The notes beneath the pieces are model-generated. The model did no database searches. It worked only from the letters and a program-made list of their open reading frames with translations, and was not told the DNA's origin. A stretch of 64,000 bases of DNA from Verrucomicrobiota bacterium (GTDB lineage: Bacteria; Verrucomicrobiota; Verrucomicrobiia; Opitutales; Cerasicoccaceae): NCBI GenBank assembly GCA_039818205.1, contig JBCBUK010000010.1:32001-96000 (forward strand). The letters run 5' to 3'. The position numbers and the translations under genes were made by a program. Shown here piece after piece: positions 40,507 to 53,944 of the stretch (position 1 is the first letter of the stretch; each line of letters opens with the position of its first letter).

Positions 40507-41457
40507 TTATCTGCCTGCCTTCAGGCGTCGCAGACCAATTAATATCCAGTTCAGCGCCTCCGCACTCGTGGATGCGTTGAATAGGCGTTGATTCTCCTCG
40601 AGGCTGAGTCGATTCGACTCGCAAAGGCGCTTGATTACTGCGTTTGATTCTGATCCTAGCCTTCCGGCTGCTCGATGGAAATTATCCCAAATGCTTTCCA
40701 AATCAAGTGGTCTAAGATCAGAAGCTGGATCACGTAGCTCTTCGACATGGGTTACCGGATCTTGATAGCACTTAGCTAAATCCCCGTTCAGCTGAAAGTT
40801 GATTTGGCGGGGAATGCCTTCCAGTCTGTCGATCGCATACTCGGTAACGCCTCCAAACAGGCGAGAAAGATAGAGCGGTTTTTTAAGAGCGAGGCTCAAT
40901 AGAATCTCTTCTAGAACGCCCGGGGTCCGTCCCCATGGTGCCGATTGCAGGTTTCCCTCTATCATGTCCCGTCCGCCAAAAGCGATTCGGGCTGTAGATT
41001 CTTCAGTCATCTCGCGACGCATTACGCTAAGCGATACCGCCCGCTGGTAGGTTCCAAGGGCACCATCAGGAAGGTTGGGCGCGCTGGTATCAACGAGGTT
41101 CAGCACGCCCCTAATTTGGCGTTCGCGCCATTCCTCCAAGGGGTTCGCTGACCCATGGTATCGAAAGTTGTGAATTAGAGGATTCTTTCGTGCGTCCTCG
41201 TGGGCAAGAACGGCATCGTGAGCTTCAGCCATCTCATAGAGGGCTAGCATTACGCCATCGGCCCGCCAGTCATGACCGAAACAAACGGCGGCACCATGTG
41301 AGATTAATGTACGAGCGATCTCGAGGACCACCTCGTTCACTTGGTCTGCGCCGTAGCTCCATTTCGAAGGCTCGAGTGGGTTCGAAATGCCAACCGATAC
41401 GATCAGTCCGCCGAGGAGCGGGTCGGTATCGAAGTTTGATATCTGATCGAGACTCAT
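40507..41457 (-). CDS. SLOG-superfamily protein (LD_cluster2/3-like)
   Basis: VGIS...EIARTLISHGAAVCFGHDWR, SLSVMRREMTEESTARIAFGG, GRTPGVLEE, KKPLYL..FGG, LSLEENQRLF: pattern of TIR-associated SLOG domains. Confidence 0.75.
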   Translation of the reverse strand: MSLDQISNFDTDPLLGGLIVSVGISNPLEPSKWSYGADQVNEVVLEIARTLISHGAAVCFGHDWRADGVMLALYEMAEAHDAVLAHEDARKNPLIHNFRYHGSANPLEEWRERQIRGVLNLVDTSAPNLPDGALGTYQRAVSLSVMRREMTEESTARIAFGGRDMIEGNLQSAPWGRTPGVLEEILLSLALKKPLYLSRLFGGVTEYAIDRLEGIPRQINFQLNGDLAKCYQDPVTHVEELRDPASDLRPLDLESIWDNFHRAAGRLGSESNAVIKRLCESNRLSLEENQRLFNASTSAEALNWILIGLRRLKAGR

Positions 41458-42683
41458 GGCTGCAGCGAGGTTTGCATCACAATTTTCTGTGGAGTCGTGA
41501 GTATAATCGATCCTTGAAACGTATCAATCAAGCCTTTGACTGCTGGTGCAAAGACTCCGGTCAGTGGGGGATCTTGGTGGAGGATCATGTACCGATTGCC
41601 GCTGCCTGGTTGTAGGTCGCGAATCGCATAGGCAATCTGGCTCATTGAAGGTGGGTAAGGAATTACACTGCTCTGATTGAACTTCAGATTTGTTTGTTGC
41701 TGGTAGGCGTGAAAGAACCGTTCAAGTGCTAATCGCTTGATGTTTTCTCGGAACGCCGAAAACAATGCTCGAAACAAGTTGCCATCAGCCAGAGATACAG
41801 TGGGTGCACCGTCGTGGGTTAATCGGTCGGCGCCGCGCTCAAGTTGTTGCCGTATCTCAACGTTAACAAGGGGAACGCCATTGTCTCGAGCCCAGACAAA
41901 CTCTTGCCGACACCATGGGCGGGTGTCGTAGCCGTCAGTCCGAAGAACAACTATTGTTGAATCAGAAATGCCGCGTTTAATCTCGCTTCTCCAATCGTTG
42001 ACGCCCGCAAGATCTTTTGCGTCATACCAGGATGAGAATTCGGTTTGCCGATCGATCAATTGCTGCATTGCCCAAGCCAAGGGAAGTCCATCTTGTTTGG
42101 CATGGCTAAGAAATATCTGCAGCTTTCGACTCCGTCCAGAAGGTCCAGCGATCCCATGAAGCAATAGTCGTCGGGCTTGGCAGAGAGTGTATAGAGCAAA
42201 CCAGACTGTCCGTTCCTCGTTCTCCCCCCAGATGCAACTTCCTTGGCCATTGCTTCGTTTTTCGTCGAGATCTTCGCAACGGATATGTCCATCAATGACA
42301 TTGATGTATCGGGAGTTCAAATCACTCCGGATTTGTTTACCCATGGTCACGATGATTAGACCGTTGTCGGGATCTTTGAGGTTGGCAGCTAGCGGGTCCA
42401 ACCAATCTCGCTTCATCTGTTTGTTCGAATCCTCAGTTACAAAAACAACGAACAGCGAATGCATGGCCTTGTCGAGCAACGCTTGCTGGTCACATAGCGA
42501 GAGTGCTTGTGAGAGCTCCTGAACAGGAACGTCAAGTTTTTCTCCGCTGCGGAGGTAGGCATTTTCGGCAGAACGGTTTCCCTGGATGACATCTTTGATG
42601 CCGTCGAGAAACGGAGCGGCAGACAGGTCGCCGCTATCGCGCACCAGGAAAATTTGTAACGGTGGCCGGGCCAGTGGGTTCAT
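41454..42683 (-). CDS. TIR-domain protein (divergent N-terminal alpha/beta domain plus active-type TIR)
   Basis: IFLSHAKQDG...WYDAKDL...DWRSEI...VVLRTDGYDTRPWCRQE (catalytic Glu). ATG 42683 lies 5 bp after the upstream stop; ATGA overlap with the SLOG gene. Confidence 0.85.
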   Translation of the reverse strand: MNPLARPPLQIFLVRDSGDLSAAPFLDGIKDVIQGNRSAENAYLRSGEKLDVPVQELSQALSLCDQQALLDKAMHSLFVVFVTEDSNKQMKRDWLDPLAANLKDPDNGLIIVTMGKQIRSDLNSRYINVIDGHIRCEDLDEKRSNGQGSCIWGENEERTVWFALYTLCQARRLLLHGIAGPSGRSRKLQIFLSHAKQDGLPLAWAMQQLIDRQTEFSSWYDAKDLAGVNDWRSEIKRGISDSTIVVLRTDGYDTRPWCRQEFVWARDNGVPLVNVEIRQQLERGADRLTHDGAPTVSLADGNLFRALFSAFRENIKRLALERFFHAYQQQTNLKFNQSSVIPYPPSMSQIAYAIRDLQPGSGNRYMILHQDPPLTGVFAPAVKGLIDTFQGSIILTTPQKIVMQTSLQP

Positions 42684-42688
42684 TAGAC

Positions 42689-43843
42689 TTATTTTGCTTC
42701 GTCGATTGAGGTTCCACCAGTTGCCTCTCGGGCAATCTTCTCGAATGCTTTCGAATGCTTGTCGAGGCATGTTGCCAGATCAGTTAGTGCTGTTGGCGCC
42801 GCATTGACGAGACGTCCATGGATTTCTTCGAGTTCATCGATAGCCAATAGTCCGGCTTCGTCGGCGTCAGTAGCCCCGGGCGTTGGTAACAAGCCTCCGA
42901 TTCGCCAAGTGATGTTTCGAATGAGTTCCTGAAGACGTTTTGTGATTGGATCAAAGATCAGGGTATTTGTCTGCCAGCTTGAGCATTGGGCTGAGAACCC
43001 GGCCATTTCAACCGAGAGCAACCAACAGGTCTGGCGATGCTCAAGAGAAGGAGCACCTTTTATGGCAGCATCCCAGCGTTCGAATTCGCCTAGATCTTCT
43101 TCTGAAATATCTGGCTGGGTTCCAGCGAGACTCGCTGATTCGGAAACCATGTTTTCGTAGCCCGGAATGTTTGCGGCATTACCGAGGTTCTTTGCATATT
43201 CAGCTGCGATTGCGCGCATCTTCTCGAGATCCCTGCGGCATATGGCATTGAGCGGCCAGTCGGCTTCACCGAGATTTGTGCCCTCCCAATCCTGCAATCT
43301 CGGGTGCCAACGACTGAGATAGGGGCGAACGGCGTGGTTCAGCATTCGATGACAGATCGATTCCAAGGTAATTGCGGTTTTCTGCGTGTTCGACGGAGTC
43401 GGAGGCATTTCCTTGAGCTCATCACGAACAATTTGGAAAAACTGATACAGAGAATTAAGCGCTTCGCGGATGTTCCCATCTTCATTGTTAAGGGGTTGGA
43501 TAACCGTCCGGGTTGTCATCTCATGGAAAATCCGCCGAGCAGCCGCCCGCTGCGGATTGCCGAGTTGAACCTTGGTGGCACCAAGAATCGGGATATTCAT
43601 CTCAACTTCGCTGACACCAAGAGGCGAGAGCATTTGTCGATAACCCGCTATCAATGGGCCTGCGATAAACGGTAAACTGCCCGCCAACGCGCCTAGAATT
43701 AGTATCATAAATCCGGTACTAACCCACCATTCTGTTTCGGATAGGTCGCCAGACGCAGTGTCGATTACCTTTGTGATTGCGATGAAGAGGGCGACGCCGC
43801 CTCCCAGGGCAAATCCAACAAGAAAACGTTGTATCTTTGACAT
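42689..43843 (-). CDS. two-TM protein with an uncharacterised, internally duplicated helical domain
   Basis: 384 aa; two N-terminal hydrophobic helices, then EMTTR..QPL...NIREALNSLY...LNHAVRPYLSRWHPRL; first gene of the left operon. Confidence 0.75.
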   Translation of the reverse strand: MSKIQRFLVGFALGGGVALFIAITKVIDTASGDLSETEWWVSTGFMILILGALAGSLPFIAGPLIAGYRQMLSPLGVSEVEMNIPILGATKVQLGNPQRAAARRIFHEMTTRTVIQPLNNEDGNIREALNSLYQFFQIVRDELKEMPPTPSNTQKTAITLESICHRMLNHAVRPYLSRWHPRLQDWEGTNLGEADWPLNAICRRDLEKMRAIAAEYAKNLGNAANIPGYENMVSESASLAGTQPDISEEDLGEFERWDAAIKGAPSLEHRQTCWLLSVEMAGFSAQCSSWQTNTLIFDPITKRLQELIRNITWRIGGLLPTPGATDADEAGLLAIDELEEIHGRLVNAAPTALTDLATCLDKHSKAFEKIAREATGGTSIDEAK

Positions 43844-44244
43844 CTTAACAAATCTTGGTACCTAGAAGGTGCAATAATGTCACGATCAAAGGTGTTACAA
43901 TAATAAAACGCTAGGACCTAATTCCTAACTATTTGAATTATTAAGCTCAGGTAATTGACATCGATTTGCCTCTGGAAAACATTTAAGTGACTTCGTATTT
44001 CTTGGTAAGAATTGGTCTAATTTTTGCTAAATTATCCCTTACCTCCAAATGCGTGGTCTAGGTGCCGTTGGATGATTTCTAATTTTTAAGGTTAGGCCTT
44101 CTCTGGGCATTTTTCACCAGAATGGGTTTGCTGAGAGCGCCTAGTTTTATCGATCCGGCAAAAATTACCCAAGCCAATCGGAAAAACTTGAATATTTCTT
44201 TACAAATTATACTTACTATCAATTAACCTACTAATACTCCTGCG

Positions 44245-44412
44245 ATGATCTTGGACTCCAGCCATTGTTTAATGCTGATGCCGCCACCACGACTCCCGTT
44301 GGAGTACGGACTCTGTTGGGTGTCGGTTATCCTTGTTCTGGTGGCGTTCATAATGCGCCCGGTGGAATTTCTGGCATCTTTAGAAGCGGAGGACGGGTTA
44401 TCTTTTCGTTAG
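44245..44412 (+). CDS. possible 55-aa single-TM peptide (not in track)
   Basis: MILDSSHCLMLMPPPRLPLEYGLCWVSVILVLVAFIMRPVEFLASLEAEDGLSFR*, bracketed by a 10-bp inverted repeat. Confidence 0.3.
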   Translation: MILDSSHCLMLMPPPRLPLEYGLCWVSVILVLVAFIMRPVEFLASLEAEDGLSFR

Positions 44413-44455
44413 GAGTATTAAAGGAACAGCCTTCACATATTGATCGAATCTAGCA

Positions 44456-45958
44456 ATGTCCGGGGACACTCCATATAGCGGTGAATCATTCAGGAATGAC
44501 GTTTTCGTTAGTTATTCGCACGGCAAAGAATTGGCTGAAAGCGGCCAATCTCATTTGAAACTGTGGTCGGATGTTCTTATTTCCAATTTAAAGGAATACA
44601 TCAGCGTGCCGCTTAGAAGTGCTGATGTTAAGATATGGAATGATGGTAAACTTCCTCCGAATTCGCCAATAACTGATACGATAAAAGAGGCGGTTGAAGG
44701 CTCAGCGATCCTCGTGGTAATCCTGACTGATTCTTACTTGCGCTCGGATTGGTGTAAGGCTGAGCGGGAATGGTTTGCATCAGAGGTAAGTCGTCGAGGA
44801 GGTGGTTCTGGTTTAGAAAGCGTGTTTGTCATTCGAGCCACAAATATCGAGCATGAGAAGTGGCCTGATTTTTTAAAAGACGAATCAGGCGAGCCGTCGC
44901 TTGGTATCAACTTTTGCGACCGGAAATCAAACTTTCCTTATGGATTTCCCGATCCGAATAAGGCCAAGGATCAGGGAGACTTTTATGCGTCACTGTCCAA
45001 TTTAGGTCCCAGTGTTGCCCGCGCGCTAGAGAAAGTAAAAAGCGAGTTTGAGAAAGCCCGCTCGGCCGCGAAACCAGCTGTCGCCAATAGGCCAATCGTA
45101 CGTACTGTCTATGTCGCGCCGGGTACTGAGGATGTCCGAGGCGCATTGAAGTCGATTCGTGAAAAGTTGACTCAGCGCGGCATCAAGGTAGCGCCTTCTG
45201 AAATGGTCGCGATTGATCAGATTCACGGACAGGTGACCAATGAAGTATTTGGGCAGGCTCGGGCATTTGTGCAATGCTTCGGTTATATGGCTGCGCGGAC
45301 ACCAGAAATGATCAGCCGTGTAGAGCGTCTACACAAGCTTGCTTGTGAACAGAATCTTCCTCGCTTTCTCTGGCGTGATTCGAAGATTGATATTGATCTG
45401 CTCAGTTACGATCTCGAGTACAAAAACTTTATCCAGCGATTAGTTCCGGACATTCAAATGGACATAGATGTTCTGGTAGAAGAGCTTTGCAGTAAACTAC
45501 AAGAAATTCAGCTCCCCGAAGATGGGGGTTTCTCCTCGACGGCTTATATGGAGATACCTTCCGAGGTTTATCATGAGTTTGATCGTTGGCGTAAAGATAT
45601 CCAGGTTCCGGATTGCGTTGTCTTTCCTCTTACACCTCCTCAGAAAGGCGGCATGAGTGAGATCTCCAAAGAGCGGCGCGCCAAGCAGTTGATTTATGAG
45701 GAGTGTAATGTGATCTTGCACCTCTACTGTGTTAAAGGCCAGTTGAAGTGGATGAGGGATTCGATCATAAATTCGGAAAAAGTAAAGACCAGGATTGACT
45801 GCCCTCAGAGTGCGCACCCGACAAATCTTATCGTCGATTATACGGATGAGACCGATACTGAATTGGTCGCTCAAACAATAGGCGTTCCGTTTTGTCGCCG
45901 AAGGGAAGGGGAGGATAGTGCTGCCCTTTTGTCCGCAATCAAGAAAGCGATTCGATGA
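44456..45958 (+). CDS. TIR-domain protein with additional divergent alpha/beta domains
   Basis: DVFVSYSH...IWND...AILVVILTDSYLRSDWCKAE (catalytic Glu); second unit begins RTVYVAPGTEDVR; ATGA overlap with the STAND gene. Confidence 0.88.
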   Translation: MSGDTPYSGESFRNDVFVSYSHGKELAESGQSHLKLWSDVLISNLKEYISVPLRSADVKIWNDGKLPPNSPITDTIKEAVEGSAILVVILTDSYLRSDWCKAEREWFASEVSRRGGGSGLESVFVIRATNIEHEKWPDFLKDESGEPSLGINFCDRKSNFPYGFPDPNKAKDQGDFYASLSNLGPSVARALEKVKSEFEKARSAAKPAVANRPIVRTVYVAPGTEDVRGALKSIREKLTQRGIKVAPSEMVAIDQIHGQVTNEVFGQARAFVQCFGYMAARTPEMISRVERLHKLACEQNLPRFLWRDSKIDIDLLSYDLEYKNFIQRLVPDIQMDIDVLVEELCSKLQEIQLPEDGGFSSTAYMEIPSEVYHEFDRWRKDIQVPDCVVFPLTPPQKGGMSEISKERRAKQLIYEECNVILHLYCVKGQLKWMRDSIINSEKVKTRIDCPQSAHPTNLIVDYTDETDTELVAQTIGVPFCRRREGEDSAALLSAIKKAIR

Positions 45959-48900
45959 GTGGTGCGAGCAGCAAGTCTGATGGCGTGCAAGCGTCCGCTG
46001 TAATCCGCCGGAATCCGTATCCAGGGTTGCGACCGTTTCAAGTTGACGAGTGGTCGATATTTTTTGGCCGCGAGCGTATGATTGATGACGTTATCGAGCG
46101 CATGGGTGAATCTCAATATGTGGTCATTCATGGGGCCTCTGGCAGTGGTAAGTCTTCTCTTATTCGTGCTGGCGTGATTGCCCAGTTGCAGCGGGAGCAC
46201 CAGAGCCGAGGTCTTGATTGGCGACCAGCGGTGATGATGCCTGGCAGTTCGCCGATGTGGCATTTTGCCACAGCACTCTTAACCGCGCTTTCTTCTGACG
46301 ATCATGATGAACCTTGGAAGATCGCGCAGACGCGAGTTCGCCTCAGTATGGGTTCTGATGGAGTTGCGGACCTTCTACAGGAAGCGGGCTTTGGTCCGGA
46401 CCAGCGCTTGTTCATTCTCGTTGATCAGTTTGAGGAAATTTTTCGATTCGCCGATGAAGGTGGCGTTGAAGAGGCGACGGAGTTTATTGAGCTTTTGGTT
46501 GACCTTCACCGACATCCTTTGTCCGGGGTCTATCTGGCAATGACCATGCGCTCAGACCATATTGGCGAGTGTTCCCGTTTCTCTGGTCTCTCGGAAGTGG
46601 TCAACAACTGCCAATATTTGGTTCCACCAATGGAGGAACGCGAGTTGATCGAGGCCATATGCCGACCAGCATCAATCGAGTGTGGTCACGTTTCGGAAGG
46701 GCTGGCCCTAAGGCTGATCAAAGACACGCGGCATACTCCGGATCAACTGCCATTGATCCAACACGCACTGTGCTACATGTGGGCTTTGGAAGTGGATGAA
46801 GCGCCAGATCAGAACCCGACTCTTAACCTTGACGACTATGCAAGAGATCAAATCGGCTCAGTTACACATGCTCTTTCGAACCACGCCGATGAGGCATTGA
46901 AGGAGTTGGCTTCAGATGGTCGTCCAACCTTGGACGCGGCGGAGCATGTTTTTCGAGCATTGACGCAGGTAGATAGTTCTGGGCGAACCATTCGGCGGCG
47001 ACTGGGAAGAAAGAAGCTACTTGGTGAAGTTAGTTGTTCTGAGGCAGTTCTAGATCGAGTCATCAAGGTTTTTGCGGCATCCAATCGTACGTTTCTGTTT
47101 CAGGAAAAAGAAAATCCGGAGATGGATCCGAAGGTCGATATTTCCCATGAATCCTTAATTCGCCACTGGGAAAAACTAGAGGACGATTCTATTGATCCCA
47201 AGACTGGACGACCTGGCGGATGGGTGAGTCGGGAAGCTTATGATGGCGCTGTTTGGCACGGGCTGGTTGCGACGGTTACCAGTGCCCCTCGACCATCGGA
47301 AGCCCAGCTTCCAAAGATTGTTTATGAGCGTCGGCAGGAATGGTGGCATTCGCGAAATCCTAATGCCAAATGGGCGCAGCGCCATGGTGGTCATTTCGAT
47401 GAAGTTAAGGAACTACTCAGCCGAAGCCGAAAGAAAATCGAAGATGATGAGCGCCGCCAGCGAGAGACGGAGGAAGCCAAAGAAGCTGCACGCCGGAAAG
47501 CCAAGTTTTTGGCCTGGATCGCGTCGGTTTTCGCAGTAATTGCGATTGGGATGGCGATTTTTGCCGCTAAAAAGAATTTTCAATTGCGGGAGTCGCTTGT
47601 GAACGCTGAGCGCCTCGTAGTAAGTGAGCGAGCGGCGTTGGACGAAGCGAATAGAGCCAAGAATGCCGCGTATGCATCAAAGGACAAAGCGATTAAATCT
47701 GAGGAGATGGCGATCAATGCGTTGCGGAGGCAATGGCAGTTGACATTGGACAAAGCAGACGCGTTTAAGGACGATCCAGTGGTCCGTTCGCTAATCGCGC
47801 TTGAGTTCCTTCCTGACGCCAGTGTCGAGGACGATGATCGTAAGAATTATCCTAGTATTCCTAGAGTAGAACAGGAGTTGAGAGAGGCGCTGAGCGCCGA
47901 AGCTCGGGTAGCGGTGGTCTACGAGGACCAGGAATTTGCTCAGACGATCGAGTCATTGGATTTCAATTATGATGGCAGTCAGATCGCGATGGTGTCCGAT
48001 CGTGGAGAAACCGTGCGAGTTATTGATGCATCGTCCAAGGATACCATCTCGAAAATTGAGGGAGAGTTCCGCGAGTTCGAACAGGTGAAATTTGGGCCGT
48101 TTGGATCCCGCATTGCTGTTACTCGCGATTTGTCTGGGAAATGGAGTATATTCGATGCGAAATCCGGAGTTGAGGAGCAAATGCTAGATTTTGGCCCCGA
48201 TATCGATGCTCTTGCCTGGTCGCCTGATGGTGGCCAAATCGTGACCGGGTCCATCGATGGATCGCTCCGCATTTGGGATGTTGGTAAAGACGTTCCGACA
48301 TTGGATGTTAATGTTTCCAGTATTCCAATTAGTTGGGTCGAGTTTGATTCGACGGGATCCAAGATCGTCGGTGGCCTCTATGACGGAGAATTGTTTTTTT
48401 GGGATATCGAAAAATCTGAGCGACCACAGATAATTGTGTCTGGATCAAGTCGGTTAGTGGCCGGAGCCTTGCTCCCGGATGGAAATTCTATAGTAAGGTT
48501 GTCCGATAAGGGTCAGGTGGATTTGGTCGACCTGGCATCTTCCGAGGTGAAATTGGTTACCAAAATCGATTCGGTTGGTCGCTCACTTGCGGTTGCTCCC
48601 TTTGGGCGTTGGATTGCAATTGGCTGCTCGGATGGTCGGGTTAAGATCGTCGATCTTGATAATACGAATCCAGTCGAAACGACCGATACTCTAGGGCGAG
48701 AAGTTGATGCACTTTCATGGTCTGTGAAGGGAAATTCGATGGCAGCAGGGACCTACGATGGTTCGCTTGCGATAATAAGTTTTTATACTCCAGAAGAGGA
48801 AGTGAAGGGAAAGAACCTGGAGAGCATGACAACCCAAGAACTTGTTGAGTTCGCCCAGGCGTCTCTTCCTTATTGCTTTAGCGAGAATGAACGAAAGCGA

Positions 48901-51900
48901 CTAGGGCTTAGTGAAGCGGTTCCTGATTGGTGCCGTGAAGAGCGTGCCTACCCGTTTGATGCATCCGGTCGAATGGCTCGTGCATTGGGGTTGCTCCCGG
49001 GTTTCCCAAAAAAATCTCACGATCAATTCAATGATGCGCTATTCCTTGCCGGCGATGGACAAAGCCTGGACATGATTCATGCGATTAAGAAAGGGGCCAT
49101 GCTGAGGGCCCTGACTCAGCTTTCGGATGGAGCGAAAAGCCCCTCAGAATTTAACTCGAGAAAGAAGCGCCTTGATGAATTCATTCAGCTGGCAACAGAA
49201 TTGGAGTTAGCCCCGGAATCTCAACTTAAGGACGCTGAGGTCGCTTTTCTGGTTGAATCGTCTCGGAATGTCATGCGGCATGACCGAACGAACGAACCTT
49301 TGAGTAGTAAGTGGTTGGCAGATGCGCGGGCAATTGATCATTCGGGCTCCTTAGAGGCGCGTTGGCGCTTAACGCTTGATGATGCCCGAAATTTAGCGAT
49401 AGAGGAGGAGACGGACGAAGACGCCGAAGCTGGGGTGGATCCGATCGTAGAAATTCTCATTGCTCTTGAGTTCCTACCAGCTGAAAATGCAGACATTGAT
49501 TCAGTGCCCGAGATTGTAGAATCTCTCCAAAGATCACTGCTCAACCTAAGGAACCAGCCAAGCATTGAGCGAAACATTGTCCACTCATTTGATGATGAAA
49601 TTGAAATGCTCGATATTGACGCCGATGGTCGAGCTGTTGTGCATTTTCAAGACCATGATGTCTTGTATGGGAAATCGATTGATAGTGGCCAAAGCGGGGA
49701 ATACTTTAAGCTATCAGTTGGGAATTTGAGTGCGATAGAGTTTAGTCCGAATAATTCACGGCTGCTCGTCTCTTCTTATGATGGCTTTATCGAAGTGCTG
49801 GATCCGAATAGTGGCGATCGACAGATAGATCCGATTGAAGCCCATGCGAAGGTCGTTGATGCTGTTTGGCTTTCTGACACGGAGATCGTCTACGCAACTG
49901 ATGAGGCCGTTTTCATCCGAAACCTTGATGACGTTAACCGTGTCGAAAAGCTTGAGGTTTTTGAAGAGCCAGTTTTCTTAAACGTACACCCGGAATCGAA
50001 AAAGTTACTAGTTGCTTCATCTGGCATGGCAACTGTCTGGGAATTGGATGGCGCCCCGTTTTACTCAAATTTTTCCCCTGAAGGATACTTAGGCTTTCTA
50101 CATGCTGAGTGGGCTGATGATGGAAATTTCCTTATTACGGTCGACGATGGTGACAGATTTGACATATGGCAGAAGCCAGACAACAAGCGCAGAGACTCGG
50201 GCTATGTATTAAGAGAAGTTCCGTTTGAACAGAGATTTTGGGAAGTCAACGCGATCGATGTGTCACGGGATGGACGCTGGTTGGTTATTGGAAGCGAAGA
50301 TTATTATCTCGATTTCTATGATCTGAAAGAACAACGGTTTGTCGCTGAGGCGAAAGTGGATGACGCTATAGTTTTTTTAGAATGGTCAGACTCCGGTGAA
50401 AGTGTGAACTGTTCTACCAGCGATGGAAGTATCATTCGATTTGACTTCTTCACGGTTGGGCAAAACTACCAACATCAGATTGAAGAACTTGTCGCTGGTC
50501 AAAACGTAGCGTCGGATCGCTCAGGCAAGAAAGGTCCGGGTTCAAGCCTTGTCGATCTGGCACGTAATGTCGTTCCTTACTGTTTCGGAGAGTGGGACCG
50601 AGAAAGCTTGCTTCTCGATGAGGAAATTCCTGATTGGTGTATTACTTGGAAGAAGCCACCGTTTGACTTTAGGGGTAGAGTGGATAGGGCATCCGAACTT
50701 ATGAATGGAGGAGAATCGGAAGTGGCCGATGCCTTCCGAATTTTCAAGGAATTGGAGATGTCACATCCCGAATCATTTGAAGCGATTCAGAAAGAGCGAC
50801 TCGCCTCTGTGCAGAGTCGATTGTCACAGTTGTCCGGGGATGCAGATAGCTATATTCGTTTCCAAGAGAAACTTTCAAAATTGGAGGGTTTCACTGAGCA
50901 GGTTAATGCCGTGCATCCTGAAATGGAGCTCGATTTTGATTACTATCGCTTCGAGCTCGCCGAAGGTGCGGCAAAGCAGTTACTGGAATACGATCAGATC
51001 GAGGGGGCTCGACAAGCCTTTGCAATAGCACTTGGCTATCGGCCGGAGCTAAAGGATCGGATCGTGTTATCTCACGCCGAAGCGGCCCTATCTCGAGGTG
51101 AGCTTGGCGTTGCGTTGTTACTCGCGCTTGAGGTTGCTGATTCAAATCCGGATGCGAAAGAATTCCTGGCGCGTTACCTATCATTGGACGGGCCGACTCA
51201 GCGTTGGCCTATCTCAGAATCTCCAATCATTGGTATCAGCGTTGATCCTGAGAATGGAGCTTACCTTGCGTCTGGTGGTTCTGAGGTTTATCGTTGGAAC
51301 CCAGAGAGTGAAGATTCCGAATTGTTACTAGGGGACGTTTCTGACGCTGGTCGAATCGCGTTGAGCCCCGATGGTAGTCGATTTATCGTGGGGAGTAGCC
51401 TCCTTCTTCCGCGTATCTGGGATTTCCCATCGGGTGATACCTCGGCGGTGCTGGAAACAAACGCTGGAGATAGTATCGGCGCTGCTTGGTCAAGTAATGG
51501 TGAACTCATTGCGCTGTCGGACGGTTTTGATGGCGGAACGTATATCTTTAACTCGGAGTCGGGAATTGCCGAAGCAACCCTCAAGGGGGCGAATACGAGC
51601 GACTACGGTGTTTGCTTTTCGCCAGTTGATGAGAAACTCGTTTTGACCGGAGGTAGCGGGTTGCTTCAGATTTGGGACATTTCAAGTGCTAGTCCGATAT
51701 TCACGTTAGAAGTCGACGAAAACATAGAGATTTACGACGTGGACTGGTCCGTTGATGGTGATCGAATTGTATATTGCGGTGAAAATGGCACTGCCGGTCT
51801 TCTAATTAGAGACGAAAACGGCAATTGGAAGAACACCCACGAGTTCGATCATAACTCTGAAGTCGTTTTTTCAGTAGCTTTTGATTCGACTGGCGAGCTT

Positions 51901-52215
51901 TTCGCTACTGGTAGTGAGAATGGAATTATGGTTTGGGATACAACGAGCGGAGATTTGATTCGGCGATTGGTCGATACTCAGCTTGATCCGGATGATGAAG
52001 AAGCGGTTCCGATTGTCGTAAAATGGGCGTCGGATGGTAACATCTATGCGGGAATGGCCAGTGGAAATCTGTTAGTGTTTAATGGGCACGGACTGGATTC
52101 TACTGATGAGGCAGAAAGTGTTGTTGAACGTGCTCGCGATCGTGTTGAACGGGAACTGACAGAAGAGGAGCGTTGGCTCTACAACCTTACCGAAAAACAG
52201 CCAGGTAAGTCTTGA
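45955..52215 (+). CDS. nSTAND1-type NTPase-TM-triple WD40 beta-propeller protein (2086 aa)
   Basis: NPYPGLRPF...FFGRE, Walker A GASGSGKSS, Walker B ILVDQFEE, QLPLIQHAL, ISHESLIRHW, TM FLAWIASVFAVIAIGMAIFAA, many WD-like repeats (e.g. LAWSPDGGQIVTGSIDGSLRIWD). Confidence 0.92.
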   Translation: MSGASSKSDGVQASAVIRRNPYPGLRPFQVDEWSIFFGRERMIDDVIERMGESQYVVIHGASGSGKSSLIRAGVIAQLQREHQSRGLDWRPAVMMPGSSPMWHFATALLTALSSDDHDEPWKIAQTRVRLSMGSDGVADLLQEAGFGPDQRLFILVDQFEEIFRFADEGGVEEATEFIELLVDLHRHPLSGVYLAMTMRSDHIGECSRFSGLSEVVNNCQYLVPPMEERELIEAICRPASIECGHVSEGLALRLIKDTRHTPDQLPLIQHALCYMWALEVDEAPDQNPTLNLDDYARDQIGSVTHALSNHADEALKELASDGRPTLDAAEHVFRALTQVDSSGRTIRRRLGRKKLLGEVSCSEAVLDRVIKVFAASNRTFLFQEKENPEMDPKVDISHESLIRHWEKLEDDSIDPKTGRPGGWVSREAYDGAVWHGLVATVTSAPRPSEAQLPKIVYERRQEWWHSRNPNAKWAQRHGGHFDEVKELLSRSRKKIEDDERRQRETEEAKEAARRKAKFLAWIASVFAVIAIGMAIFAAKKNFQLRESLVNAERLVVSERAALDEANRAKNAAYASKDKAIKSEEMAINALRRQWQLTLDKADAFKDDPVVRSLIALEFLPDASVEDDDRKNYPSIPRVEQELREALSAEARVAVVYEDQEFAQTIESLDFNYDGSQIAMVSDRGETVRVIDASSKDTISKIEGEFREFEQVKFGPFGSRIAVTRDLSGKWSIFDAKSGVEEQMLDFGPDIDALAWSPDGGQIVTGSIDGSLRIWDVGKDVPTLDVNVSSIPISWVEFDSTGSKIVGGLYDGELFFWDIEKSERPQIIVSGSSRLVAGALLPDGNSIVRLSDKGQVDLVDLASSEVKLVTKIDSVGRSLAVAPFGRWIAIGCSDGRVKIVDLDNTNPVETTDTLGREVDALSWSVKGNSMAAGTYDGSLAIISFYTPEEEVKGKNLESMTTQELVEFAQASLPYCFSENERKRLGLSEAVPDWCREERAYPFDASGRMARALGLLPGFPKKSHDQFNDALFLAGDGQSLDMIHAIKKGAMLRALTQLSDGAKSPSEFNSRKKRLDEFIQLATELELAPESQLKDAEVAFLVESSRNVMRHDRTNEPLSSKWLADARAIDHSGSLEARWRLTLDDARNLAIEEETDEDAEAGVDPIVEILIALEFLPAENADIDSVPEIVESLQRSLLNLRNQPSIERNIVHSFDDEIEMLDIDADGRAVVHFQDHDVLYGKSIDSGQSGEYFKLSVGNLSAIEFSPNNSRLLVSSYDGFIEVLDPNSGDRQIDPIEAHAKVVDAVWLSDTEIVYATDEAVFIRNLDDVNRVEKLEVFEEPVFLNVHPESKKLLVASSGMATVWELDGAPFYSNFSPEGYLGFLHAEWADDGNFLITVDDGDRFDIWQKPDNKRRDSGYVLREVPFEQRFWEVNAIDVSRDGRWLVIGSEDYYLDFYDLKEQRFVAEAKVDDAIVFLEWSDSGESVNCSTSDGSIIRFDFFTVGQNYQHQIEELVAGQNVASDRSGKKGPGSSLVDLARNVVPYCFGEWDRESLLLDEEIPDWCITWKKPPFDFRGRVDRASELMNGGESEVADAFRIFKELEMSHPESFEAIQKERLASVQSRLSQLSGDADSYIRFQEKLSKLEGFTEQVNAVHPEMELDFDYYRFELAEGAAKQLLEYDQIEGARQAFAIALGYRPELKDRIVLSHAEAALSRGELGVALLLALEVADSNPDAKEFLARYLSLDGPTQRWPISESPIIGISVDPENGAYLASGGSEVYRWNPESEDSELLLGDVSDAGRIALSPDGSRFIVGSSLLLPRIWDFPSGDTSAVLETNAGDSIGAAWSSNGELIALSDGFDGGTYIFNSESGIAEATLKGANTSDYGVCFSPVDEKLVLTGGSGLLQIWDISSASPIFTLEVDENIEIYDVDWSVDGDRIVYCGENGTAGLLIRDENGNWKNTHEFDHNSEVVFSVAFDSTGELFATGSENGIMVWDTTSGDLIRRLVDTQLDPDDEEAVPIVVKWASDGNIYAGMASGNLLVFNGHGLDSTDEAESVVERARDRVERELTEEERWLYNLTEKQPGKS

Positions 52216-53658: not shown

Positions 53659-53944
53659 ACCTAATTATTTGGGGGTTATTCTTCGATTTCCAGGAAATTT
53701 TATAGAAATTTTATAAGTGACTTGCCCTAGCTTATCGGAGCTGATTAAACTAAGTTAAGTTCGAATTGATTAAAGTTTATCGTCTCCACCTAGTCTGCTG
53801 GGGGTTAGGGCCTATTTCTTCATGGATTTGCCCTGAATTCTGGCATCCATCTATCCGTTTCAAGCCGGCTTAACGTTGTTTAGCGAGCTTTAGAGATTGC
53901 GGAGGCAGCGGGAATAGATTGTGATTTGGTAGCTCTTTTCCACT

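What the first reader, a model, noticed from the sequence alone, without database searches (positions are those of the whole stretch)
47791..52190. STAND sensor region is a whole ~555-aa module triplicated
Seen: the motif L(I/L)ALE recurs at 47791, 49456 and 51118 (spacing 555 and 554 codons). Each is followed by a WD40-like propeller and a cap: LVEFAQASLPYCFSENERKRLGL..PDWC..PFD, LVDLARNVVPYCFGEWDRESLLL..PDWC..PFD, and VVERARDRVERELTEEERWLYNL. The two helical linkers are also similar (GRMARA..LTQLSDGA vs GRVDRA..LSQLSGDA). The blades have diverged strongly. Inference: the cap that normally ends such proteins was duplicated along with the propeller, giving three different sensors in series for multi-ligand recognition. 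They follow a TM helix and have paired Cys, so they may face the periplasm, unlike cytoplasmic Avs sensors.
Basis: partly seen in the sequence, partly recalled or inferred. Interest (0 to 1): 0.7.

Follow-up and report, generated by a model that had tools for sequence, protein, structure and literature searches.

The report
Membrane-spanning STAND receptor with three propellers
This bacterial gene joins an immune-type ATPase, through a predicted membrane helix, to three separately capped WD40 propellers (one more than most close relatives carry), and it likely acts as a cell-envelope receptor that would switch on the TIR enzyme encoded just upstream.

Summary
Partly confirmed. The ORF 45955-52215 (2086 aa) is an nSTAND1 NTPase, one hydrophobic helix, a helical stalk and three 7-blade WD40 propellers, each with its own helical clamp and cap. 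It is not a whole module triplicated. Modules 1 and 2 are the same 'first' type (26% over 532 aa). Module 3 is a shorter (387 aa) 'last' type with no linker and no Cys pair. Five of the 7 closest relatives carry first + last, so this protein is a two-module form plus one extra first-type module. It was the only three-framed form among 208 proteins examined. The membrane helix is family-wide (117 of 119; control 3 of 119), with positive-inside bias and exported domains behind it in relatives (PPC, CHASE2, murein endopeptidase), so the sensors probably face the periplasm. A separate TIR gene with its catalytic Glu overlaps the start; homologues sit by the STAND gene in 44 of 80 related loci. Best reading: a type II single-pass receptor whose outside ligand binding clusters the NTPase and activates the TIR partner. 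Three different ligands is plausible but untested. No structure could be predicted. A new variant of a known kind.

The parts
44456..45958 (+). Upstream partner gene, 500 aa: N-terminal TIR domain with catalytic Glu103, then a second TIR-like (DUF4062-type in relatives) region; its stop overlaps the STAND start by 4 nt; no hydrophobic helix
   Evidence: Pfam TIR_2 E 5.5e-9; Glu103, Glu at that column in 21 of 25 aligned homologues; DUF4062 in 11 of 25 homologues but not in this one; homologue beside the STAND gene in 44 of 80 loci, always a separate reading frame
45955..52215 (+). Whole STAND receptor ORF, 2086 aa, no effector domain before the NTPase
46015..47184 (+). nSTAND1 NTPase (aa 21-410); Walker A (aa 60-67) and Walker B (aa 154-161) residues match invariant or near-invariant columns
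   Evidence: PF20703 272.8 bits against cut-off 27.1; conserved columns in a 31-sequence alignment
47506..47562 (+). Predicted single transmembrane helix (aa 518-536), N side in, C side out
   Evidence: hydropathy 2.49; 6 K/R before and 3 after; family-wide conservation and charge bias
47572..47760 (+). Helix-rich stalk (aa 540-602) leading to module 1
   Evidence: composition only: 65% helix-forming residues; length varies among relatives
47731..49359 (+). Module 1, first type (aa 593-1135): clamp 593-647, 7-blade propeller 660-943, cap 960-995 with Cys974 and Cys993, helical linker 1005-1135
49360..51051 (+). Module 2, the extra first-type copy (aa 1136-1699): clamp, most diverged propeller 1211-1498, cap 1530-1563 with Cys1543 and Cys1562, helical linker
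51052..52212 (+). Module 3, last type (aa 1700-2086): clamp 1701-1740, propeller 1753-2044, short cap 2055-2083 without Cys
40507..43843 (-). Divergent three-gene operon in the same low-GC3 island: 384-aa protein with two N-terminal hydrophobic helices, 438-aa TIR (Glu290), SLOG cluster 2; probably a separate system
   Evidence: no hit in any of 80 related loci

Best explanation
The protein is an nSTAND1 NTPase followed by one hydrophobic helix and three separately clamped and capped WD40 propellers, and it likely works as a single-pass (N-in, C-out) envelope receptor that would activate the TIR protein encoded directly upstream. Shown from sequence: the domain order, intact NTPase motifs, the conserved helix, the TIR gene coupling, and the 2+1 make-up (first, first, last). 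Inferred: (1) the helix crosses the inner membrane, so the propellers lie in the periplasm and cannot fold back on the NTPase as in Apaf-1; (2) binding of an outside molecule, most likely a sign of envelope attack such as an invader protein or cell-wall product, clusters the receptors or shifts the continuous stalk helix; (3) the NTPases oligomerise and recruit the separate TIR protein, which cleaves NAD+ or makes a signal and halts the cell; (4) each clamp-propeller-cap unit is a self-contained cartridge, so the extra first-type copy (tandem duplication or recombination with a relative, not resolved) adds a binding surface that has since diverged.
For: Topology: hydrophobic helix within 140 aa after the NTPase match in 117 of 119 relatives against 3 of 119 in an NTPase-internal control; 73 of 80 genome loci have it, and 67 of those 73 have more K/R on the N side, 4 equal, 2 reversed. 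Exported-type domains behind the helix in relatives: PPC-like repeats in clade member P0007 (Atlas 0.94, PF04151 in 91-93% of cluster members), CHASE2 then three hydrophobic helices and a cyclase in P0105, murein endopeptidase M74 in L041, Sel1 repeats in 4 proteins. Cap Cys residues occur together: both in 15 of 20 modules, neither in 4, one only in 1. Partner: TIR homologue in 44 of 80 loci, catalytic Glu in 21 of 25. Conflict-system signs: island GC3 0.47-0.53 against 0.55-0.69 in flanking genes, none of the five island genes within 17-18 kb downstream of lpdA in 4 of 4 congeners; no match in 15 of 15 same-family genomes; sensor region swapped within one NTPase clade of 8 (3, 2 or 1 propeller modules, or FGE-sulfatase). 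Module history: frame tree splits first-type (with modules 1 and 2) from last-type (with module 3) at 98/97; leave-out HMMs agree.
Against: No experiment, no structure model and no ligand. PADLOC gives only weak P-loop or TIR hits, no Avs model. The stretch before the helix is a charged coiled coil, which inflates the K/R count. Fused CHASE2 or PPC domains in relatives show that the position can be exported, not that it is here. Neighbourhoods of the 7 closest relatives were not obtained, so TIR coupling rests on the wider clade, and 36 of 80 loci gave no tblastn hit to this TIR (7 of them have under 1200 nt upstream). Modules 1 and 2 are not shown to be sisters (p-AU 0.36 and 0.09; 30% frame+linker identity, within the 25-37% range to relatives). 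How a periplasmic signal unlocks a STAND across a membrane has no precedent in what I read.
Confidence: 0.5

Rival explanations
1. Same receptor, but only one propeller senses; the extra module is a spacer or a decaying copy that lengthens the reach across the periplasm.
For: All three propellers have lost every Gly-His dipeptide; match to the subfamily consensus is 38%, 27% and 42% against 31-86% in 17 relative modules; module 2 is the lowest and carries the longest branch. Module 3 keeps part of the subfamily binding-face pattern.
Against: All three keep 7 blades of normal length, and module 2 keeps its clamp, cap and Cys pair in an intact frame. Linkers in relatives already vary in length by adding helical repeats, a cheaper way to gain reach.
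Confidence: 0.25
2. Membrane receptor for non-defence signalling (envelope stress, a nutrient polymer or a host cue), with the TIR making a regulatory signal rather than arresting the cell.
For: A conserved binding-face pattern is shared across species in most subfamily propellers, which suggests a stable ligand; relatives fuse CHASE2-cyclase; Lee et al. [quoted passage not shown]
Against: Patchy distribution, island location next to a second TIR and a SLOG gene, fast sensor swapping and a catalytic TIR partner.
Confidence: 0.15
3. The hydrophobic helix is not membrane-spanning; the protein is a cytoplasmic Apaf-1-like STAND whose propellers bind invader proteins inside the cell.
For: Characterised STAND sensors are intracellular (abstract); the helix sits inside a long coiled-coil region; most bacterial STAND-WD40 descriptions assume a cytoplasmic sensor (recalled).
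Against: Hydropathy 2.49, conservation 117 of 119 against 3 of 119, charge bias 67 of 73, paired Cys and exported-type domains downstream in relatives.
Confidence: 0.08

Closest known systems
nSTAND1 conflict systems (Kaur et al. 2021, PMC8195603; section 7 and passages read; Pfam PF20703)
   Same: Same NTPase clade; variable C-terminal sensors, including FGS as in clade member P0127; TIR effectors.
   Different: The text read describes effector-NTPase-FGS fusions; it does not describe a single membrane helix after the NTPase, framed propeller modules or an unfused upstream TIR gene of this type.
PCTM and receptor-like TIR-ParA systems (bioRxiv 10.64898/2026.10.19.760177; passages read)
   Same: Cytoplasmic NTPase, type II single membrane helix, variable periplasmic sensor, upstream effector gene; proposed to detect envelope breach. 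This is the closest 'works like'.
   Different: Their NTPase is ParA, not a STAND; sensors named are pentapeptide, TPR, SPOR, PASTA and cadherin; the systems are predicted, not tested.
Avs / defence STANDs and bacterial Apaf-1 orthologues (Lee et al. 2026, PMC13581612; abstract, sections 5 and 15, passages)
   Same: STAND NTPase with C-terminal repeat sensor, WD40 propellers among them.
   Different: Sensors detect molecules inside the cell; no passage found on single-pass STANDs ('periplasm' 0 hits, 'transmembrane' 1 hit in an unrelated legend). No Avs PADLOC match.
DGR-target NACHT/nSTAND1-CLec proteins (bioRxiv 10.1101/2023.09.22.558884, passages) and TM-type bNACHTs (10.1101/2022.07.19.500537, passages)
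   Same: Periplasmic or intramembrane sensing by some STANDs has been proposed.
   Different: Multi-TM or CLec sensors; no framed WD40 modules.
Fungal het-d/het-e NWD receptors (Paoletti et al. 2007, PMC1805685; abstract only)
   Same: STAND with WD40 sensor whose repeats are exchanged (concerted evolution); whole propellers are homogenised within some relatives here (P0004, 85%).
   Different: There single repeats are exchanged in a cytoplasmic NACHT; here the unit looks like a whole propeller inside a fixed frame, and this protein's own propellers are not homogenised.
Mycobacterial receptor kinase PknD (search listing only; details recalled)
   Same: Cytoplasmic enzyme, one membrane helix, extracellular beta-propeller sensor.
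   Different: Kinase rather than STAND; one NHL propeller.

Membership tests
nSTAND1 STAND NTPases | PF20703 match above the curated cut-off | tested here: met
   272.8 bits against 27.1, aa 21-410
nSTAND1 STAND NTPases | Intact Walker A and Walker B | tested here: met
   residues at invariant or near-invariant columns of 31 sequences
nSTAND1 STAND NTPases | C-terminal superstructure-forming repeat sensor | tested here: met
   three WD40 blocks
nSTAND1 STAND NTPases | N-terminal effector fused to the NTPase (tripartite plan) | tested here: not met
   only 20 aa precede the domain; the TIR is a separate ORF here and in 44 of 44 loci with a hit
Avs / tested anti-phage STANDs | Match to an Avs profile | tested here: not met
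   PADLOC: only mad3/mad8 P-loop hits at E 2e-4 and 8e-4; NCBIfam none above cut-off
Avs / tested anti-phage STANDs | Sensor in the cytoplasm binding a phage protein | tested here: inconclusive
   sequence evidence points to an exported sensor; ligand unknown
Avs / tested anti-phage STANDs | Phage protection | not testable with these tools
   needs experiment
Bacterial Apaf-1 orthologues | Propellers able to fold back on the NTPase | tested here: inconclusive
   a conserved hydrophobic helix and stalk intervene; no structure model obtained
PCTM / receptor-like ParA systems | ParA-clade NTPase | tested here: not met
   NTPase is nSTAND1
PCTM / receptor-like ParA systems | Type II single membrane helix with variable outside domain | tested here: met
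   predicted from hydropathy, charge bias and swapped C-terminal domains
PCTM / receptor-like ParA systems | Upstream effector gene | tested here: met
   TIR gene overlapping the start
Fungal NWD (het-d/e) receptors | Highly similar WD40 repeats under concerted evolution | tested here: not met
   this protein's propellers are 17-20% identical; homogenisation is seen only in some relatives

The most novel reading that the evidence does not exclude
A widespread, undescribed class of bacterial Toll-like receptors built from a STAND NTPase: the sensor lies outside the inner membrane, the TIR effector is supplied in trans, and in this subfamily the sensor is a chain of swappable clamp-propeller-cap cartridges that are copied, overwritten from a neighbour or added. 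This protein would read three different periplasmic ligands through one NTPase switch.
Probability: 0.25. Interest if true: 0.8.

Novelty: new variant of a known kind. Interest (0 to 1): 0.5.

Why it matters
Tested bacterial STAND receptors sense invaders inside the cell. If this topology holds, a large nSTAND1 group senses outside the inner membrane and must be switched on by clustering or helix movement rather than by release of a folded-back sensor, which is a different activation logic. The framed propeller cartridge gives clean boundaries for deletion and swap tests, so this three-module gene and its two-module relatives make 'one propeller, one ligand' directly testable. The third module by itself is a modest copy-number change.

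Tried and rejected
Whole-module triplication: rejected; all three modules held as one clade gave p-AU 0.045, borderline on its own. In-lineage duplication of module 1: neither shown nor rejected (p-AU 0.36, 0.09; the pair ranks 11th of 55 for private shared residues). TIR-STAND fusion in relatives: suspected from overlapping ORFs, rejected on frame, 0 of 44 fused. Assembly artefact: no sign. Linkers and clamps: no Pfam family, no usable Atlas hit. NTPase part: no solved STAND relative by sequence, best hits were P-loop matches to UvrA at E 0.03 or worse; the module profile hit only generic WD40 structures. Metagenome pattern scan: 2 matches, one chance (L084), one distant relative (L085). The cap/linker homologue search returned only 2 proteins and missed known members, so module counts are lower bounds; proteins over 3651 aa were not searched. 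No RNA holder listed. Promoter scan was at chance level, 2 found against a mean of 2.0. Earlier findings of the scan: nothing returned in 4 look-ups. Literature: ten searches showed no paper describing this architecture; the library lacks most subscription papers, the Gao et al. 2022 Avs paper was not obtained, three large supplements of PMC13581612 could not be read (7 others had no nSTAND or WD40 term), and bioRxiv supplements are closed; any of these may list this clade.
Full report
What is there. The finding lies in the last two thirds of a 2086-aa ORF at 45955-52215 (+). Pfam places an nSTAND1 NTPase at aa 21-410 (272.8 bits, cut-off 27.1) and WD40 families further on. One hydrophobic helix lies at aa 518-536. 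Three WD40 blocks follow at aa 660-943, 1211-1498 and 1753-2044, each with seven blades in register with relatives. A 500-aa TIR gene (44456-45958) overlaps the start by four bases and keeps the catalytic Glu.

The observation. The three clamp motifs and their spacings are exact. Modules 1 and 2 align over 532 aa at 26% (E 3e-25), and their clamps and caps beat all 1000 shuffles; the linker alone is weaker (9 of 1000). Module 3 is only 387 aa, lacks the linker and the Cys pair, and its clamp and cap are not above chance against modules 1 and 2 pairwise. So the repeat is real, but it is not one whole module in three copies.

What relatives show. Searches found a small close group. In a quick NTPase tree of 37 rows chosen from the hits, eight proteins form one clade (support 100): this protein with three modules, five with two (P0002-P0006), one with one module plus PPC-like repeats (P0007) and one with a helical region and FGE-sulfatase instead of WD40 (P0127). 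P0122 (outside the clade) and P0121 (cut at the N end) also have two modules; P0123 and P0124 are fragments with one module and a second clamp. A tree of the frames (clamp + cap, 20 modules) splits first-position from last-position frames at 98/97 support, with modules 1 and 2 on the first side and module 3 on the last (the bootstrap had not settled). HMMs built without this protein give the same assignment. First and last caps are clearly homologous (HHalign probability 98.8), the clamps only faintly (15.5). The history is therefore an old duplication that made the first + last plan, and a later gain of a second first-type module. Whether that came by tandem duplication in this lineage or by recombination with a relative is unresolved. 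Among 208 proteins examined (126 search hits including this one, and 82 locus ORFs), only this one has three separated WD40 blocks; 13 have two, and nine have one continuous block of 880 aa or more, about three propellers' worth. Three propellers are thus not rare; three separately framed ones are. The counts are lower bounds (one search missed known members; proteins over 3651 aa were not searched).

Propellers move within fixed frames. In P0004 the two propellers are 85% identical while their frames are 30% identical. A quick propeller tree also pairs the two propellers of P0005 (97) and P0003 (85), and groups those of P0121 with one other (94); for those three the identity margin over other proteins is small, so only P0004 is unambiguous. 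Nine relative modules (both of P0003, P0004 and P0121, and the first of P0123, P0006 and P0007) share a blade-by-blade pattern at the start of each blade's inner strand, the usual ligand face of WD40 domains (position assignment recalled; pattern). In this protein the propellers are 17-20% identical to each other, have no Gly-His dipeptide left, match the subfamily consensus at 38%, 27% and 42% (relatives 31-86%), and differ from one another at those positions; module 3 keeps part of the pattern. This fits new specificities, but also decay.

Topology. A helix of hydropathy above 1.6 follows the NTPase in 117 of 119 search hits, against 3 of 119 in an internal control, and in 73 of 80 genome loci, 67 of which have more Lys/Arg on the N side. 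Behind it, relatives carry domains typical of exported proteins: PPC-like repeats, CHASE2 followed by three more hydrophobic helices and a cyclase, a murein endopeptidase and Sel1 repeats (29 locus or protein entries of other genomes plus three window segments were scanned, and 14 of the 25 locus C-termini had no Pfam hit). CHASE2 is described as extracellular in PMC5587647 (passage). The two cap Cys are present together in 15 of 20 modules, absent together in 4 and single in 1.

Context. A homologue of the TIR gene is found in 44 of 80 related loci, always as a separate ORF; 21 of 25 aligned homologues have the catalytic Glu, and 11 of 25 have a DUF4062 hit, a family shown to be TIR-like NADases (10.64898/2026.05.01.722283, passages). 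The five genes from 40507 to 52215 have GC3 0.47-0.53 against 0.55-0.69 around them and are not found downstream of lpdA in four congeners. The NTPase query matched none of 15 same-family genomes and only weakly 2 of 60 relatives overall. It is the only nSTAND1 above cut-off in the genome. This is the pattern of an acquired conflict locus. The neighbourhoods of the closest relatives were not obtained.

Mechanism. Most likely (0.5): an N-in, C-out receptor. An outside ligand binds a propeller, clusters the receptors or shifts the stalk helix, the NTPases oligomerise and recruit the separate TIR, which cleaves NAD+ or signals and stops the cell. Domain order, motifs, helix conservation and gene coupling are shown; topology is strongly inferred; ligand, oligomerisation, TIR activation and a defence role are inferred from STAND and TIR biology (and recalled knowledge). 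Rivals: the extra module is a spacer or decaying (0.25), non-defence signalling (0.15), cytoplasmic sensor (0.08).

Comparison and novelty. It is a member of nSTAND1 by profile and motifs but lacks a fused effector. It is not an Avs by profile. It works like the predicted PCTM and receptor-like TIR-ParA systems but has a different NTPase. Periplasmic sensing by some STANDs has been proposed before, and membrane-linked conflict systems with outside domains are described in PMC7159879 (passages). Ten searches showed no description of single-pass nSTAND1-WD40 receptors with an upstream TIR or of framed propeller modules; unread supplements and subscription papers may hold one. Verdict: a new variant of a known kind. 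The third module is a modest change; the outside-facing, cartridge-built STAND receptor is the part worth testing. Interest 0.5.

Noticed in passing
window 40507-43843 (-): Divergent three-gene operon: 384-aa protein with two N-terminal hydrophobic helices and no Pfam hit, a TIR with Glu290 (weak hits to Thoeris ThsB and type III ThcB4, below cut-off) and a SLOG cluster 2 protein. Looks like a separate Thoeris-like system; no hit in 80 STAND loci.
   Followed up: partly
P0004 and other two-module relatives: Whole propellers are homogenised within a protein while the frames stay position-specific (P0004: 85% against 30%), suggesting propeller-scale gene conversion.
   Followed up: partly
P0003, P0004, P0006, P0007, P0121, P0123: A shared blade-by-blade binding-face pattern across species points to one conserved ligand for the ancestral propeller.
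   Followed up: partly
P0127: Same NTPase clade and membrane helix, but a helical region and FGE-sulfatase (C-type lectin fold) replace the propellers.
   Followed up: partly
L025 9941-13376; L015, L019, L029: L025 has two nSTAND ORFs in tandem, the first with a C-terminal TIR; L015, L019 and L029 have short nSTAND ORFs without the hydrophobic helix.
   Followed up: no
L007, L008, L009, L014, L033, L034, L076: A shared short C-terminal domain with no Pfam hit follows the membrane helix in several proteobacterial and other members.
   Followed up: no
L047, L050, L051, L060, L062, L067, L069: In these Bacteroidota loci the upstream gene is a roughly 1050-aa HEAT + cNMP-binding protein instead of a TIR.
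   Followed up: no
window 43805-43825 and 53815-53835: 21-nt inverted repeat with 90% complementarity bracketing the TIR-STAND pair and the kinase gene; may be chance.
   Followed up: no
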